Source: a plasmid. From it: DNA of 38,066 nt. Position numbers: made by a program. Location of the stretch: the sequence record NZ_CP140368.1. One strand, 5' to 3'. Of this stretch, positions 33,001 through 36,000 are shown piece after piece; positions within the stretch are counted from its first letter, which is position 1, and the number at the start of each line of letters is the position of its first letter.

Positions 33001-36000
33001 AGTCCTATTTATGTAATGATATAACCAGCTATTGCCGAAGCTGATCCAAAAATAACACCGCCAATGAAAATAGGTGCAACTTCTCTAAGGGTTTGCCCCT
33101 GAAACATAATTTTAGATCCACCCCACATAAATGCAATTGTGAGTAGCACAGCTCCAAGTGCATACAAAGCAGTGCTTAAATTTTCCATAAAGGTATTAAC
33201 TTTATCAATACCACCAGCACCAAATGCAAAAATAGGACTGATTAAAATTAATGATAATAGCCTTTTTTTCATCCATATCCTTTCGTTAAAAAATTGAGCG
33301 TTTTATTTATGTCTTAAATTTGTATTTAATAAATAAATTAAATTTAGTTTTATAATTAAATTAATATTATTCAAAAGCTTTTATTTAAGTATTAGCTATT
33401 TTTTACTAGAATTTGTTAGGTTTTTGATGAAAGGATAAAAAAATGGCATACCCACTTTTAGGTACAAGAATAGTATTAGATGAAGAAAAGATTTTAAAAG
33501 AAGGCAAATATAATTTAGAAGATATGTATAAAATGATAGATGAATATGCTAAAGAATCAGGAATGATAAAAATTAATAAAGAAACTTATCATTGTAAAGG
33601 GGATAAGTATGATTTAGGTTGTATGACTTTATTTATATATAAATATTTGATTGATTCTGAATGGTTTACAAAAAATGCAAAAGAATGGATTTGGATTAGT
33701 GAAAAAGAAGGAAATAGCGATTTAATTTCTGCAAGTAAAGCTGAAGGAGAAGGAATTTGGGAATAAATCGCAAAGCAATTAATTTTGATTTATCTACAAA
33801 AAGTCTTGAAAAATATTTCAAAGATACAAGAGAACCTTATTCTTTGATTAAAAAATTTATGCTTGAAAATGGTTTCGAGCATAGACAATATTCAGGTTAT
33901 ACTTCAAAAGAGCCAATAAATGAAAGACGAGTTATAAGAATAGTTAATAAGCTCACTAAAAAATTTACTTGGCTTGGCGAATGTGTTAAAGAGTTTGATA
34001 TTACTGAAATAGGAGAGCAGTATAGCTTAAAAGAGACTATACAAGACTTATGTGCTAAAGATTTTCATCAAAAACTTAAAGAATTTACTGAAAAAACACC
34101 AAAAAATCAAAAGTTAAAAGATTTAGAACGATGAATATAGCATACATAAGAGTATCAACAAATAAACAAGAATTAGACTCTCAAAAGTTAGAAATTATGG
34201 AATATTGTCATAAAAACAATATTCATTTGGATGAAATTTTGGAAGTAAAAATAAGTTCTACAAAATCTCAAGAGAAAAGAAAAATCAAGGATTTAAAACA
34301 AAAACTAAAAGCAGGCGATTTATTAATAGCAACAGAACTTTCAAGACTTGGTAGAAGTATGTTAGAAATAATTAATTTAGTGCTTGAATTTAATTCTAAT
34401 AATATTAAATTCTTATTTTTAAGACAAATGGAACTTAGTAATTTTAATAATCCTGCTTCTAAATTAATCTTATCGGTTTATGCTTACTTAGCAGAAAATG
34501 AAAGAGATTTGATAAGTCAAAGAACTAAAGCAGGACTAGAAAATGCTAGAGCTAGTGGAAAAAAACTGGGACGCCCTAAAGGCTCATTAAATAGTATTTA
34601 TGATAAGGATATAGATAAAATACAAACCTTGCTTGATAAAGATTTATCTATTAAAAGTATTTGGAAGTTATTATACAAAGATAATGGAAAAAGCTATGAT
34701 GGTCTATTGTGGTTTATCAAAAAACGAAAATTAAAAGGAAGCTAAATTTTCATTTAAGAAAAATATAAAAAATTTTGTAATAAAATAAAACGCTCAATTT
34801 GTCTATCTTATTTGTCTTTGTCTTTCTAATTCCCATTCATTCATACAACACTCCTTGATTGTAAATGTTAATCAAATAAAGATTTTTGCAAAAGAAATTT
34901 ATTGCTTTTGGTGTTTAATTGATTCATTGGATCACTACGCTTAATATATCTTTTTACTCTATTATTGCTTTCATAGATGAAAAATAAATCATTTTCATTT
35001 TTATACTTATTATGAAAAAATTCATCATCATAATTAGCAAATTCTACGCCTTTGCCATAAACATTAATTCCAAATTCTATAAGTTTATCTTTTAATTTAA
35101 CAATCTCTTTCTTTTGTTTCGAAATAATAGAACTTTCTTTATAAAATCTATAAGCTTTAATTTCACAAAACTCACTATAACTAAGAATTTTCTTATCAGG
35201 AAAACTTGTTAAAAATCTAATCAAATCTTGTGCCACCAAAGAATTTAAATTAATAAGAATTTTGGATAAATCATCATCATAAGAAAGGGTAGATTCTGTT
35301 TCGAGTTTTTTAATATATTCTCTACGAACTGTTAGCACGAATACAGATACAATTGTTCCATTTTCTTTTGTGATACGCTCTACAGAGTCAAACATTAAAA
35401 TACCTTTATCTCTTTGAGTGATTGTTTTTTTATCTTTATCTTCTACATTTTGAGTGAAAGCCAAATCATACGCAAAACGAGAGATTTCTGTAAATTTTTG
35501 TTTCAACCAAGAGTAATTATTAGAATTTTTATTAAGATATTGTTTCAAGAATTTATAAGGCTCTAATCTTACTTCCATATCCCAAAAATTTTCTTGATAT
35601 TTTTTAATAACACTTGTATCTACATTTTTTTTGATATATAAAAATAAAGCATCTAAAATATTCCTATGCGTTTGCGTAAGCAAAGAATTCTTTAAACTTA
35701 TGACATATGATGAGTCATTCGCACCTGTCATTTTAAAATCTATTTTATTATCATTTTCTTTAAATACTTTATAAAAATTAGTGTCTGTAAGCTTTCGTGA
35801 GCTTAAATAAAAAACACCTCTATTTTCATTCATTGTTACATAGCCTTTTGCTAATTCATTAACACTTACAGCAGAAATATCTTTTTTATTGATAATCTCT
35901 AAAGTATTAGAATCAATGCTGTTAGCTCTAAGATTTACAATTGAAGGCTCATCAATACTAGAATTTTGCAATACTTTAATCGTTTTTTGAAATTCTCCAG

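What the first reader, a model, noticed from the sequence alone, without database searches (positions are those of the whole stretch)
33292..34804. 18-bp perfect inverted repeats bracket a 1.5-kb vapX-vapD-resolvase cassette
AAATTGAGCGTTTTATTT (33292-33309) and its exact reverse complement (34787-34804) flank the block and nothing else. An 18-mer carrying a GCG core is very unlikely by chance in this AT-rich sequence. The repeats could be terminal inverted repeats of a small mobile or recombination cassette, paired binding sites for the resolvase (res or crossover sites), or regulatory operators. Copy A sits in the virB2 promoter region.
Basis: seen in the sequence. Interest (0 to 1): 0.55.

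Follow-up and report, generated by a model that had tools for sequence, protein, structure and literature searches.

The report
Recombinase gene bracketed by its sites
The two 18-bp inverted repeats are real: they form the core of two outward-facing promoters on a Campylobacter pTet conjugative plasmid, and they are very probably also the DNA-exchange sites of the invertase-like serine recombinase encoded between them.

Summary
The repeat exists, at 33291-33308 and 34783-34800. On its own it is not statistically remarkable: 16 of 60 shuffles give an equally long distant repeat.

The window is a Campylobacter pTet plasmid. Published dRNA-seq of the 99% identical 81-176 pTet puts a transcription start at the centre of each arm. 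One is the virB2 (T4SS pilin) primary start at 33299 on the minus strand. The other is an outward RNA at 34792 on the plus strand.

In about 35 distinct related loci the same pair of arms brackets the serine recombinase gene. vapX-vapD are optional passengers. The contexts include T4SS plasmids and ICEs, two chromosomal polysaccharide loci and a phage-like element.

The arm sequence differs between lineages. The dinucleotide at +2/+3 has eight alleles, yet it matched between the two arms in all 19 lineages tabulated. Two other plasmids, both homologous-recombination mosaics, are mismatched. Seven independent rearrangement junctions fall exactly at that dinucleotide. That is the signature of a serine-recombinase crossover site.

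The recombinase is closest to DNA invertases (Gin, Mpi family). The best reading is a Hin-like recombinase module whose crossover sites overlap twin outward promoters. The main caveat is that no flipped copy was found in 183 plasmids.

The parts
33291..33308 (-). Left arm. Read outward on the - strand it is AAATAAAACG[CT]CAATTT, spanning -9 to +9 of the virB2 promoter. It is the proposed crossover site, a short dyad ATWAAWYG-NN-CRWTTWWT covering about 33289-33306.
33297..33298 (.). Proposed crossover dinucleotide of the left arm (AG on the + strand, CT on the outward strand; transcript positions +2 and +3).
   Evidence: Most variable position between lineages with no mismatch between arms. The L019/L028 chromosomal junction falls just after it.
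33299..33299 (-). Primary transcription start of virB2/cmgB2, giving a 27-nt 5' UTR.
   Evidence: Dugar et al. 2013 (PMC3656092), Table S5, TSS 21340(+) of 81-176 pTet. Its 51-mer maps exactly to the window.
34783..34800 (+). Right arm. Read outward on the + strand it is AAATAAAACG[CT]CAATTT, spanning -9 to +9 of an outward promoter. It is the proposed partner crossover site.
34793..34794 (.). Proposed crossover dinucleotide of the right arm (CT).
   Evidence: Junctions in L021 and in L024/L025/L034 fall at or just after it. Homology to other plasmids ends at 34794-34800.
34792..34792 (+). Transcription start of an outward RNA. In this plasmid it is antisense to the 3' end of the AAA_25 ATPase gene cpp26. 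In relatives the same promoter faces inserted cargo genes.
   Evidence: Table S5, TSS 19847(-), enrichment 10.9. Cargo on the + strand follows the arm in L001, L004, L015, L024 and L034.
33418..33418 (+). Transcription start of the module's own operon (cpp29/vapX-like, vapD, recombinase).
   Evidence: Table S5, TSS 21221(-), 25-nt UTR.
33443..33766 (+). 107-aa ORF (cpp29) in the position of vapX. It has no family match. It is an optional passenger.
   Evidence: Absent together with vapD in L006, L014, L015, L017 and L037.
33757..34134 (+). vapD, a Cas2-like VapD family protein. It is an optional passenger.
   Evidence: NCBIfam NF041506, 150 bits against a cutoff of 100. Weak Cas2 matches in PADLOC.
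34131..34745 (+). Small serine recombinase (cpp27, 204 aa). It has a catalytic domain, a long helix E and a C-terminal three-helix HTH.
   Evidence: PF00239, E = 6.9e-34. Best PDB sequence hit is Gin invertase, E = 1e-17. Best NCBIfam hit is the Mpi invertase family, 136 bits, below the 272 cutoff. R7, S9, R72 and R75 are invariant in 28 homologues. AF2 model pLDDT 85.5, with full-length Foldseek hits to gamma-delta and Tn3 resolvases and a gamma-delta/Hin chimaera.
33009..33272 (-). virB2/TrbC pilin gene, the first gene of the T4SS operon, driven from the left arm.
   Evidence: PF04956, E = 5e-16; TSS data.
34801..34867 (.). Hypervariable slot between the right arm and the stop codon of the ATPase gene. 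It is 67 bp here and is replaced by 0.4-4.8 kb of cargo in other plasmids.
   Evidence: Homology breaks at 34794-34800 and resumes at 34862-34868 in L001, L003, L004 and L012. In L024/L025 the break at 34794 was seen; resumption lies beyond the fetched locus.
34868..36661 (-). AAA_25 / DnaB-like ATPase gene (cpp26), the right-hand neighbour, convergent with the recombinase gene.
   Evidence: PF13481, E = 1.7e-14.

Best explanation
The two arms are the paired crossover sites of the small serine recombinase encoded between them, an invertase-like enzyme nearest to Gin and the Mpi family. Each arm is a short dyad, ATWAAWYG-NN-CRWTTWWT on the outward strand. A recombinase dimer would bind it and exchange strands at the central dinucleotide NN (CT here; 33297-33298 and 34793-34794). 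The same sequences form the core of two outward-facing promoters. The end of the -10 element lies in the inner half of each arm. Transcription starts one base before the crossover dinucleotide. The outer half encodes the first 9 nt of each RNA. The left promoter drives the virB2-virB4 T4SS operon. The right one drives an antisense RNA here and cargo genes in relatives. Shown: the repeat itself, both transcription starts, the conserved architecture, the co-variation, the junction positions, and the type and intact catalytic residues of the recombinase. Inferred: that the recombinase binds and cuts there; that exchange between the two arms inverts the module in the manner of the Hin H segment, swapping the unique upstream promoter parts between the two flanking transcription units; that bound recombinase represses both promoters; and that exchange with look-alike sites elsewhere explains cargo capture, chromosomal integration and relocation of the module. 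I put about 0.65 on the crossover-site claim and about 0.4 on inversion being the physiological reaction.
For: (1) Position is conserved while sequence changes. The arms bracket the recombinase gene in pTet and pCC31 plasmids, in Helicobacter plasmids and ICEs, in chromosomal polysaccharide loci of C. hyointestinalis and an uncultured Campylobacter, and in a phage or plasmid-like element. Recombinase identity falls as low as 55%. (2) Across 19 lineages, positions +2 and +3 have the highest entropy within -9 to +8 (1.57 and 1.81 bits). Seven alleles appear in that table (CT, AG, AA, AC, AT, TT, GT... see full report), plus others from later loci, eight in all. Mismatches between arms are 0 of 19 there, whereas flanking positions do mismatch. 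G+1 is invariant and C+4 nearly so, and they sit symmetrically around +2/+3. Dyad symmetry is best for a core at +2/+3: 57%, against 46% at -1/+1 and 23-38% at other positions. (3) The allele is not tied to the protein. Two recombinase types, each 93% identical to the window's, carry [AA] (pCC31) and [CT] (L067) respectively. (4) Junctions sit at the dinucleotide: L019/L028 chromosomes CGCTC|; L021 CGCTC|; L024/L025/L034 cargo CGCT|; L009 both ends at [AC]; L047 carries a 684-bp module 100% identical to that of L044, in a different place in a T4SS cluster, with identity ending at CG[TT]C| and CG[TT]CA|. (5) Recombinase type. (6) Both transcription starts lie at the arm centres. (7) In relatives only one end has a good -10 element just inside the arm, for example TATAAT against TTTAAT in the polysaccharide loci and TGCTACAAT against AATAAAAAT in L044. 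Inversion would therefore move the strong promoter. (8) In L035 the repeat has grown to 69 bp by inverted duplication of the virB2 leader and first codons. This points to a DNA-level process acting between the arms.
Against: No flipped module was seen. None of 183 plasmid records contains the predicted inverted junction, and all roughly 35 distinct loci have the same orientation. The locus tool may hide flipped copies as 'similar places'. Two natural mosaics, L033 ([CT]/[AA]) and L034 ([AA]/[CT]), show that matched arms are not needed for plasmid survival. The dyad symmetry is modest and mostly A/T. The outer half-sites beyond +9 are not conserved between the left and right arms. Some cargo boundaries lie at +8 to +10 rather than at the dinucleotide (L001, L004), and no second site was seen at the far end of a cargo. 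In pTet both promoters fire about equally (step heights 84 and 85), so inversion here would change little. No binding or cleavage data exist. Hin and Gin need Fis and an enhancer, and neither was examined here.
Confidence: 0.6

Rival explanations
1. The arms are twin promoters sharing one operator. They are kept alike because one repressor, possibly the recombinase acting only as a DNA-binding protein, controls the T4SS operon and the outward right-hand transcript together. No strand exchange occurs between the arms.
For: Both arms span -9 to +9 of mapped transcription starts. Resolvases such as TnpR are known to repress from their sites (established knowledge). The orientation of the module never varies. 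Mosaic plasmids with unlike arms survive.
Against: An operator model does not explain why the two most variable positions never differ between arms, while the allele is uncoupled from the recombinase sequence. It also does not explain seven rearrangement junctions at exactly that dinucleotide. The catalytic Ser9 and the arginines are invariant across the family.
Confidence: 0.15
2. The arms are terminal inverted repeats of a cut-and-paste mobile cassette. The whole 18-bp repeat would belong to the element, which transposes as a unit.
For: The module occurs in unrelated contexts: L009 inside a helicase gene, and L047 elsewhere in a T4SS cluster.
Against: Only the inner half plus the dinucleotide moves with the module; the outer half is replaced in L009, L047, L019, L021 and L024. 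There is no DDE or HUH transposase and no direct target duplication. L009 replaced about 170 codons of its target rather than simply inserting. In nearly all plasmids the module sits at one fixed place.
Confidence: 0.1
3. The feature acts at the RNA level. The identical first 9 nt or more of the two outward RNAs would be a shared leader, or the two copies would pair within one long transcript, for example the ATPase 3' UTR with the virB2 5' UTR.
For: Identity between arms is most complete in the transcribed half: mismatches are more frequent at -1, -5 and -8 than at +1 to +4, and identity runs to +17 in L015, L017 and L040. The A/G differences between arms in L003, L009 and L014 would be G-U compatible on the - strand.
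Against: Those A/G differences lie upstream of the transcription start, so they are not in the RNA. The arms stay perfect in plasmids where 4.7 kb of cargo separates the ATPase gene from the right arm. An RNA element would not place DNA rearrangement junctions at +3/+4. Rfam finds nothing.
Confidence: 0.04
4. The repeat is a chance match in AT-rich DNA.
For: 16 of 60 shuffles give an equally long distant inverted repeat, and a second one exists in the window.
Against: The pair sits at the same two positions in every relative, with eight co-varying alleles.
Confidence: 0.01

Closest known systems
Hin / H-segment of Salmonella (and the Gin, Cin, Pin invertases)
   Same: A small serine recombinase of about 200 aa is encoded inside a 1-1.5 kb segment. 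The segment is bounded by two short inverted sites, each a dyad around a 2-bp exchange core, and a promoter reads out of it. Gin is the best solved-structure sequence hit.
   Different: Here promoters read out of both ends, and transcription starts one base before the proposed exchange dinucleotide. Neither the flipped state, nor Fis, nor an enhancer has been shown. The half-sites (CRWTTW) are shorter and more AT-rich than hix or gix, which I recall from memory as GGTTTTTGATAA-like. The module also turns up relocated.
Mpi master invertase of Bacteroides fragilis and its promoter invertons
   Same: Mpi is the best NCBIfam family for the recombinase (NF009949, E = 1e-39). Mpi flips promoter segments of surface-polysaccharide loci. 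Relatives of this recombinase sit between two divergent polysaccharide operons in Campylobacter. From memory only, the Mpi repeat core ARACGTWCGT has the same ACG-NN-CGT layout.
   Different: The score is below the family cutoff (136 against 272). Mpi acts in trans on 13 or more distant invertons, whereas here the only sites flank the gene itself. The remembered consensus could not be verified.
Serine-integrase att sites and recombinase-mediated cassette exchange
   Same: In those systems the central dinucleotide is not read by the enzyme but must match between partner sites, so it can vary freely in matched pairs. A cassette flanked by two sites can be swapped into a target carrying two compatible sites. 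This is established knowledge for phiC31 and Bxb1.
   Different: This is a small, not a large, serine recombinase. The exchange events here are inferred only from natural junctions (L009, L047). The partners are look-alike sites rather than dedicated attB sites.
Tn3 / gamma-delta resolvase and res
   Same: The fold and domain order are the same (full-length Foldseek hits). The recombination site overlaps promoters, so the recombinase probably also represses them.
   Different: There is no three-part res. The two sites are inverted and 1.5 kb apart, flanking the gene, rather than forming one site upstream. There is no transposase.
Invertible bin/sin regions of staphylococcal beta-lactamase plasmids (from memory)
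   Same: A plasmid-borne small serine recombinase gene lies within a segment bounded by inverted copies of its own recombination site.
   Different: Those repeats are long res-containing duplications and both orientations are readily seen. This comparison rests on memory and was not checked here.

Membership tests
Small serine recombinases (resolvase/invertase, PF00239) | N-terminal catalytic domain with a serine nucleophile and conserved arginines | tested here: met
   PF00239, E = 6.9e-34, residues 3-145. R7, S9, R72 and R75 are invariant in 28 homologues.
Small serine recombinases (resolvase/invertase, PF00239) | Long helix E followed by a C-terminal helix-turn-helix DNA-binding domain | tested here: met
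   The AF2 model (pLDDT 85.5) has helix 110-141 and three helices at 156-198. Full-length Foldseek matches to gamma-delta and Tn3 resolvases and to a gamma-delta/Hin chimaera. The Pfam HTH_7 domain itself was not detected.
DNA invertase systems (Hin/Gin type) | Two recombination sites in inverted orientation flanking the segment | tested here: met
   The arms are inverted in every locus examined.
DNA invertase systems (Hin/Gin type) | Each site is a dyad around a 2-bp core where strands are exchanged, and the cores of the two sites match | tested here: inconclusive
   The core at +2/+3 is matched in 19 of 19 tabulated lineages, and junctions fall on it. Dyad symmetry is only 57%. There are no cleavage data.
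DNA invertase systems (Hin/Gin type) | Both orientations of the segment occur in nature | tested here: not met
   0 of 183 plasmids carry the flipped junction. All roughly 35 distinct loci have the same orientation.
DNA invertase systems (Hin/Gin type) | Fis-dependent recombinational enhancer in cis | not tested
   No search for an enhancer or for a Fis homologue was made.
Mpi family (NCBIfam NF009949) | Score above the curated equivalog cutoff | tested here: not met
   136 bits against a cutoff of 272. It is the best-scoring family, covering 1-181 of 203 profile positions.
Mpi family (NCBIfam NF009949) | Acts in trans on several promoter invertons elsewhere in the replicon | tested here: not met
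   The site occurs nowhere else in the 38-kb window.
Resolvase/res multimer-resolution systems (Tn3, gamma-delta) | A single composite res (subsites I-III) next to the gene, acting on direct repeats | tested here: not met
   There are two single sites, inverted and 1.5 kb apart. No tripartite arrangement was seen.
Transposable elements with terminal inverted repeats | A transposase, whole repeats moving with the element, and direct target duplications | tested here: not met
   There is no transposase domain. Only the inner halves move, and there are no direct duplications.
VapD (NF041506) | Score above the curated cutoff | tested here: met
150 bits against a cutoff of 100.

The most novel reading that the evidence does not exclude
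This would be a widespread, undescribed class of self-contained serine-invertase modules in Campylobacter and Helicobacter, in which the strand-exchange dinucleotide lies at +2/+3 of two outward transcripts. Rare flipping would swap a strong and a weak promoter between the flanking units. On plasmids and ICEs those units are the T4SS/conjugation operon and a cargo slot. On the chromosome they are two alternative surface-polysaccharide operons. This would add DNA-inversion phase variation to a genus thought to rely on homopolymer slippage. The same enzyme would let the module capture cargo, integrate plasmids into chromosomes, and relocate by double site-specific exchange.
Probability: 0.3. Interest if true: 0.8.

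Novelty: new variant of a known kind. Interest (0 to 1): 0.62.

Why it matters
pTet plasmids are the main carriers of tet(O) in Campylobacter. What controls their T4SS operon is not known to me, and no held paper describes this region. If the recombinase binds or flips the DNA that carries the virB2 start site, it would be a direct handle on conjugation frequency.

The right arm is a promoter followed by a hypervariable slot. In relatives that slot holds defence-like and replication cargo: a TIR-domain (ThsB) gene, a Cas2-like gene, Dcm, a histidine kinase and response regulator, and RepL. The arms also mark where pTet DNA has joined chromosomes. They therefore help explain plasmid mosaicism and chromosomal capture.

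The same module sits between divergent polysaccharide operons in C. hyointestinalis and in an uncultured Campylobacter. This suggests an inversion switch for surface glycans in a genus where phase variation is attributed to repeat slippage.

The matched but free-to-vary crossover dinucleotide is also a natural set of orthogonal site pairs for a small serine recombinase.

Tried and rejected
(1) Simple inversion in nature. I built chimeric junction queries and searched 72,556 plasmids. None of 183 matching records has the flipped junction.

(2) A third site or half-site in the window. None was found.

(3) Exchange centre at the geometric middle of the repeat (CG, -1/+1). I rejected it in favour of +2/+3. 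Symmetry is lower there (46% against 57%). Junctions extend 2-3 nt beyond CG. The hypervariable matched positions are +2 and +3.

(4) Co-variation between the recombinase HTH and the arm sequence. None was found: the window and L004 recombinases differ at 3 residues, none of them in the predicted last (recognition) helix, yet their arms differ at 3 of 18 positions. Two recombinase types, each 93% identical to the window's, carry different alleles.

(5) Long-range RNA pairing with G-U wobble. The A/G differences lie upstream of the transcription starts, and Rfam is empty.

(6) A second site at the far end of cargo insertions, as circle integration would predict. It was not seen in L034, and the window's own 18-mer is absent from L001.

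(7) The remembered Mpi repeat consensus ARACGTWCGT. The paper is not held and the string appears in no held paper.

(8) Flipped junction of the phage-like relative in IMG/VR. The element is absent there.

(9) Metagenome and viral scans for the recombinase gave 2 and 0 loci.

(10) Literature searches for cpp27, for pTet inverted repeats and for Campylobacter invertible elements found no description of this feature.
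Full report
**1. The observation**

The window (38,066 bp, 28% G+C) carries AAATTGAGCGTTTTATTT at 33291-33308. Its exact reverse complement lies at 34783-34800. The perfect match is 18 bp, and without gaps it continues inward to 31 nt at 81%.

Between the arms lie three genes:
- a 107-aa ORF (33443-33766) with no family match;
- vapD (33757-34134; NCBIfam VapD, 150 bits against a cutoff of 100);
- a 204-aa serine recombinase (34131-34745; PF00239, E = 7e-34).

The left arm ends 19 nt from the virB2 start codon (virB2 is 33009-33272 on the minus strand). The right arm lies in the convergent gap before the stop codon of an AAA_25 ATPase gene (34868-36661, minus strand).

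Taken alone, the repeat is not remarkable. At least one distant exact 18-bp inverted repeat arose in 16 of 60 dinucleotide shuffles, and an unrelated one exists at 20314/28254.

**2. What the replicon is**

The region is 100% identical to pTet-type conjugative plasmids of C. jejuni and C. coli, for example pTet-M129. It is 99.1% identical to the 81-176 pTet. In total 213 plasmid records match.

**3. Both arms are promoter cores**

Dugar et al. 2013 (PMC3656092, Table S5) mapped transcription starts on the 81-176 pTet by dRNA-seq. Their 51-nt upstream sequences match the window exactly. They give three starts in this region:
- the primary virB2/cmgB2 start at 33299 on the minus strand, with a 27-nt UTR;
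- an outward start at 34792 on the plus strand, listed as antisense to cpp26, with enrichment 10.9;
- the module's own start at 33418 on the plus strand.

The step heights of the two outward starts are 84 and 85. Read outward, each arm is AAATAAAACG[CT]CAATTT and spans -9 to +9. Both RNAs therefore begin GCUCAAUUU.

**4. The pair is conserved in place but not in sequence**

I fetched about 75 loci, roughly 35 of them distinct. Inverted arms bracket the recombinase gene in all of the following:
- pTet and pCC31 plasmids;
- plasmids of C. upsaliensis, C. helveticus, C. insulaenigrae, H. apodemus and H. rodentium;
- H. typhlonius-type T4SS elements;
- chromosomal polysaccharide loci of C. hyointestinalis and an uncultured Campylobacter, where the module sits between manC / GDP-mannose dehydratase on one side and GHMP kinase / SIS / NTP transferase on the other;
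- a phage or plasmid-like element carrying YopX, an AAA ATPase and UvrD.

Recombinase identity falls as low as 55%. vapX-vapD are absent from many of these loci (L006, L014, L015, L017, L037, L040, L044). The conserved unit is therefore the recombinase plus its arms.

Two more distant plasmid homologues do not fit. L016 (58% identity) has a different palindromic repeat, and L018 (52% identity) has none.

**5. Co-variation**

I aligned the arms on the start-site G. The consensus is A(-7) T(-6) W W A W Y G(+1) N N C(+4) R W T T(+8). Positions +2 and +3 have the highest entropy within -9 to +8 (1.57 and 1.81 bits). Eight alleles were found across all loci: CT, AG, AA, AC, AT, TT, GT and TC. Mismatches between arms are 0 of 19 at these positions, while flanking positions do mismatch in some lineages.

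G+1/C+4 and Y-1/R+5 are symmetric about +2/+3. Dyad symmetry is best for that core: 57%, against 46% at -1/+1 and 23-38% at other positions.

The allele is not tied to the protein. Two recombinase types, each 93% identical to the window's, carry [AA] (pCC31) and [CT] (L067) respectively. The window and L004 recombinases differ at three residues, yet their arms differ at three of 18 positions.

A dinucleotide that is free to vary, is not read by the protein, and must match between partner sites is what is known for the crossover dinucleotide of serine recombinases (established knowledge for phiC31, Bxb1, Hin and Gin).

Two plasmids outside that table break the rule. L033 has [CT] on the left and [AA] on the right, and L034 has the reverse. 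Each arm carries an allele known from matched lineages, so these are mosaics made by homologous recombination inside the module. They show that matching is not required for plasmid survival.

**6. Rearrangement junctions fall on that dinucleotide**

- C. jejuni chromosomes L019 and L028 carry pTet DNA from the left arm onward, next to infC and a D12 methyltransferase. Identity ends at CGCTC|.
- L021 joins the right arm to chromosomal methyltransferase-fliN DNA at CGCTC|.
- The RepL / Cas2-like / TIR cargo of L024, L025 and L034 begins at CGCT|.
- L009 is a Helicobacter MAG. Only the vapX-vapD-recombinase block is present (homology to window 33306-34792). It replaces about 170 codons of a DEAD/SNF2 helicase gene, with both junctions at [AC]. 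It shares that allele, and the T/C difference at -1, with the Helicobacter plasmid L014.
- L047 carries a 684-bp module 100% identical to that of L044, but between virD4 and another T4SS gene rather than next to virB2. Identity ends at CG[TT]C| and CG[TT]CA|.

In addition, homology between plasmids breaks at 34794-34800 and resumes at the ATPase stop codon. This defines a hypervariable slot just downstream of the right promoter. It is 67 bp here and 0.4-4.8 kb of cargo elsewhere.

**7. The enzyme**

The model (pLDDT 85.5) shows a catalytic domain, a long helix E and a C-terminal three-helix HTH. It matches gamma-delta and Tn3 resolvases and a gamma-delta/Hin chimaera over its full length. The best solved-structure sequence hit is Gin invertase (E = 1e-17). 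The best NCBIfam family is the Mpi master invertase, at 136 bits, below the cutoff of 272. R7, S9, R72 and R75 are invariant in 28 homologues. The family is large in Campylobacter and Helicobacter.

**8. Most likely mechanism**

The arms are the recombinase's paired crossover sites, laid over the cores of two outward promoters. Because the sites are inverted and the core is usually non-palindromic, exchange between them can only invert the module. This is the Hin arrangement, with the gene inside the segment.

The arms contain only the downstream part of each -10 element. The decisive upstream part lies just inside, in unique sequence. In several relatives one end is strong and the other weak: TATAAT against TTTAAT in both polysaccharide loci, and TGCTACAAT against AATAAAAAT in L044. 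Inversion would therefore move the strong promoter from one flanking unit to the other. In pTet itself both ends fire about equally, so the effect here would be smaller. It might act through read-through from the module's own operon.

Recombinase bound to the arms should also block both starts, since each site spans about -7 to +11.

Exchange with look-alike sites elsewhere would explain cargo capture, chromosomal integration and relocation of the module by double exchange. The 69-bp repeat of L035 duplicates the virB2 leader and first codons at the right arm. It shows that a DNA-level process extends identity outward. Gene conversion between copies in opposite orientations would do this, but that is inference.

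**9. Main evidence against**

No flipped module was seen. None of 183 plasmids has the predicted junction, and every fetched locus has the same orientation. Either flipping is rare and strongly biased, or selected against, or the arms recombine only with other partners. No biochemical data exist.

**10. Rivals**

- Twin promoters sharing an operator, without strand exchange: 0.15.
- Terminal inverted repeats of a cut-and-paste element: 0.1. Only the inner halves move, there is no transposase and there are no direct duplications.
- An RNA leader or long-range pairing: 0.04. The A/G differences lie upstream of the starts, the arms persist with 4.7 kb of cargo in between, and Rfam finds nothing.
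- Chance: 0.01.

**11. Novelty**

Searches of the held literature found no description of these repeats or of cpp27 function. The components are known kinds: a small serine invertase-like recombinase and inverted crossover sites. The new elements are the coincidence of the exchange dinucleotide with +2/+3 of two outward transcripts, the position at the head of T4SS operons and between polysaccharide operons in Campylobacterota, and the evidence that the module relocates. I rate it a new variant of a known kind.

Noticed in passing
L040-L043 and L054-L057 (about 1900-2700 in each locus): In C. hyointestinalis and in an uncultured Campylobacter, a 62-67% identical recombinase gene stands alone between two divergent surface-polysaccharide operons (manC / GDP-mannose dehydratase on one side, GHMP kinase / SIS / NTP transferase on the other). 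It is flanked by 19-26 bp inverted arms TAATTAATCG[TC]C... Only the right end has a perfect TATAAT just inside the arm. This is a candidate inversion switch for surface glycans.
   Followed up: partly
L035/L036, 1079-1147 and 2650-2718: In a C. insulaenigrae plasmid the inverted repeat is 69 bp long. The right arm also duplicates the virB2 Shine-Dalgarno sequence and first ~9 codons.
   Followed up: partly
window 37073-37364: There are five direct copies and one inverted copy of TTGACTTAAATGTAA(T), spaced about 20-100 bp apart, upstream of the hicB-like/ATPase operon. They look like iterons or operators. The chromosomal pTet fragments L019 and L028 end at one of these copies (window 37195) and carry an extra copy.
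   Followed up: partly
window 25119-25258 and 37927-38066: A 140-bp exact direct repeat runs to the end of the window. The sequence after the first copy resembles the start of the window, so the repeat probably continues, diverged, across the window ends.
   Followed up: no
window 20314-20331 and 28254-28271: A second, unrelated perfect 18-bp inverted repeat (CAAGAAAAATCATTTGAA) with arms 7.9 kb apart. It was not examined in relatives.
   Followed up: no
window 270-302 and 6106-6129: Two perfect local palindromes: ATAATATATAAAAAATATTTTTTATATATTAT and AGTAAAAGGCAATTGCCTTTTACT.
   Followed up: no
window 34804-34845, - strand: A small ORF, MNEWELERQRQIR, with a strong AAGGAG Shine-Dalgarno sequence, lies immediately after the ATPase stop codon. 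It ends just before the right arm.
   Followed up: no
L024/L025/L034, first ~60 nt after the right arm: The RepL / Cas2-like / TIR cargo begins with three AAACG motifs at about 20-bp spacing: AAAACG[CT]AGATATTGC-TAAACG[AA]TAGCGATAATC-TAAACG[AC]CCTTTTTAAG. The third resembles the L009 right junction. They could be leftover hybrid sites or RepL repeats.
   Followed up: no
window 33373-33394: A second copy of the inner half of the left arm (GCTTTTATTTAAGTATTA, against GCGTTTTATTTATGTCTTA) lies 78 bp further in, at -45 to -30 of the module's own promoter. It may be an accessory or autoregulatory binding site.
   Followed up: no
L001 11297-15750; L004 3654-4274; L015 3705-4193: The slot after the right arm holds different cargo in different plasmids: a sensor kinase, response regulator and Dcm methyltransferase; two small ORFs; or RepL. 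Where cargo faces the arm, it lies on the strand read from the right-arm promoter.
   Followed up: partly
window 32447, + strand: The published dRNA-seq also lists an antisense start inside virB4 (81-176 pTet position 22192, minus strand). It maps exactly to the window.
   Followed up: no
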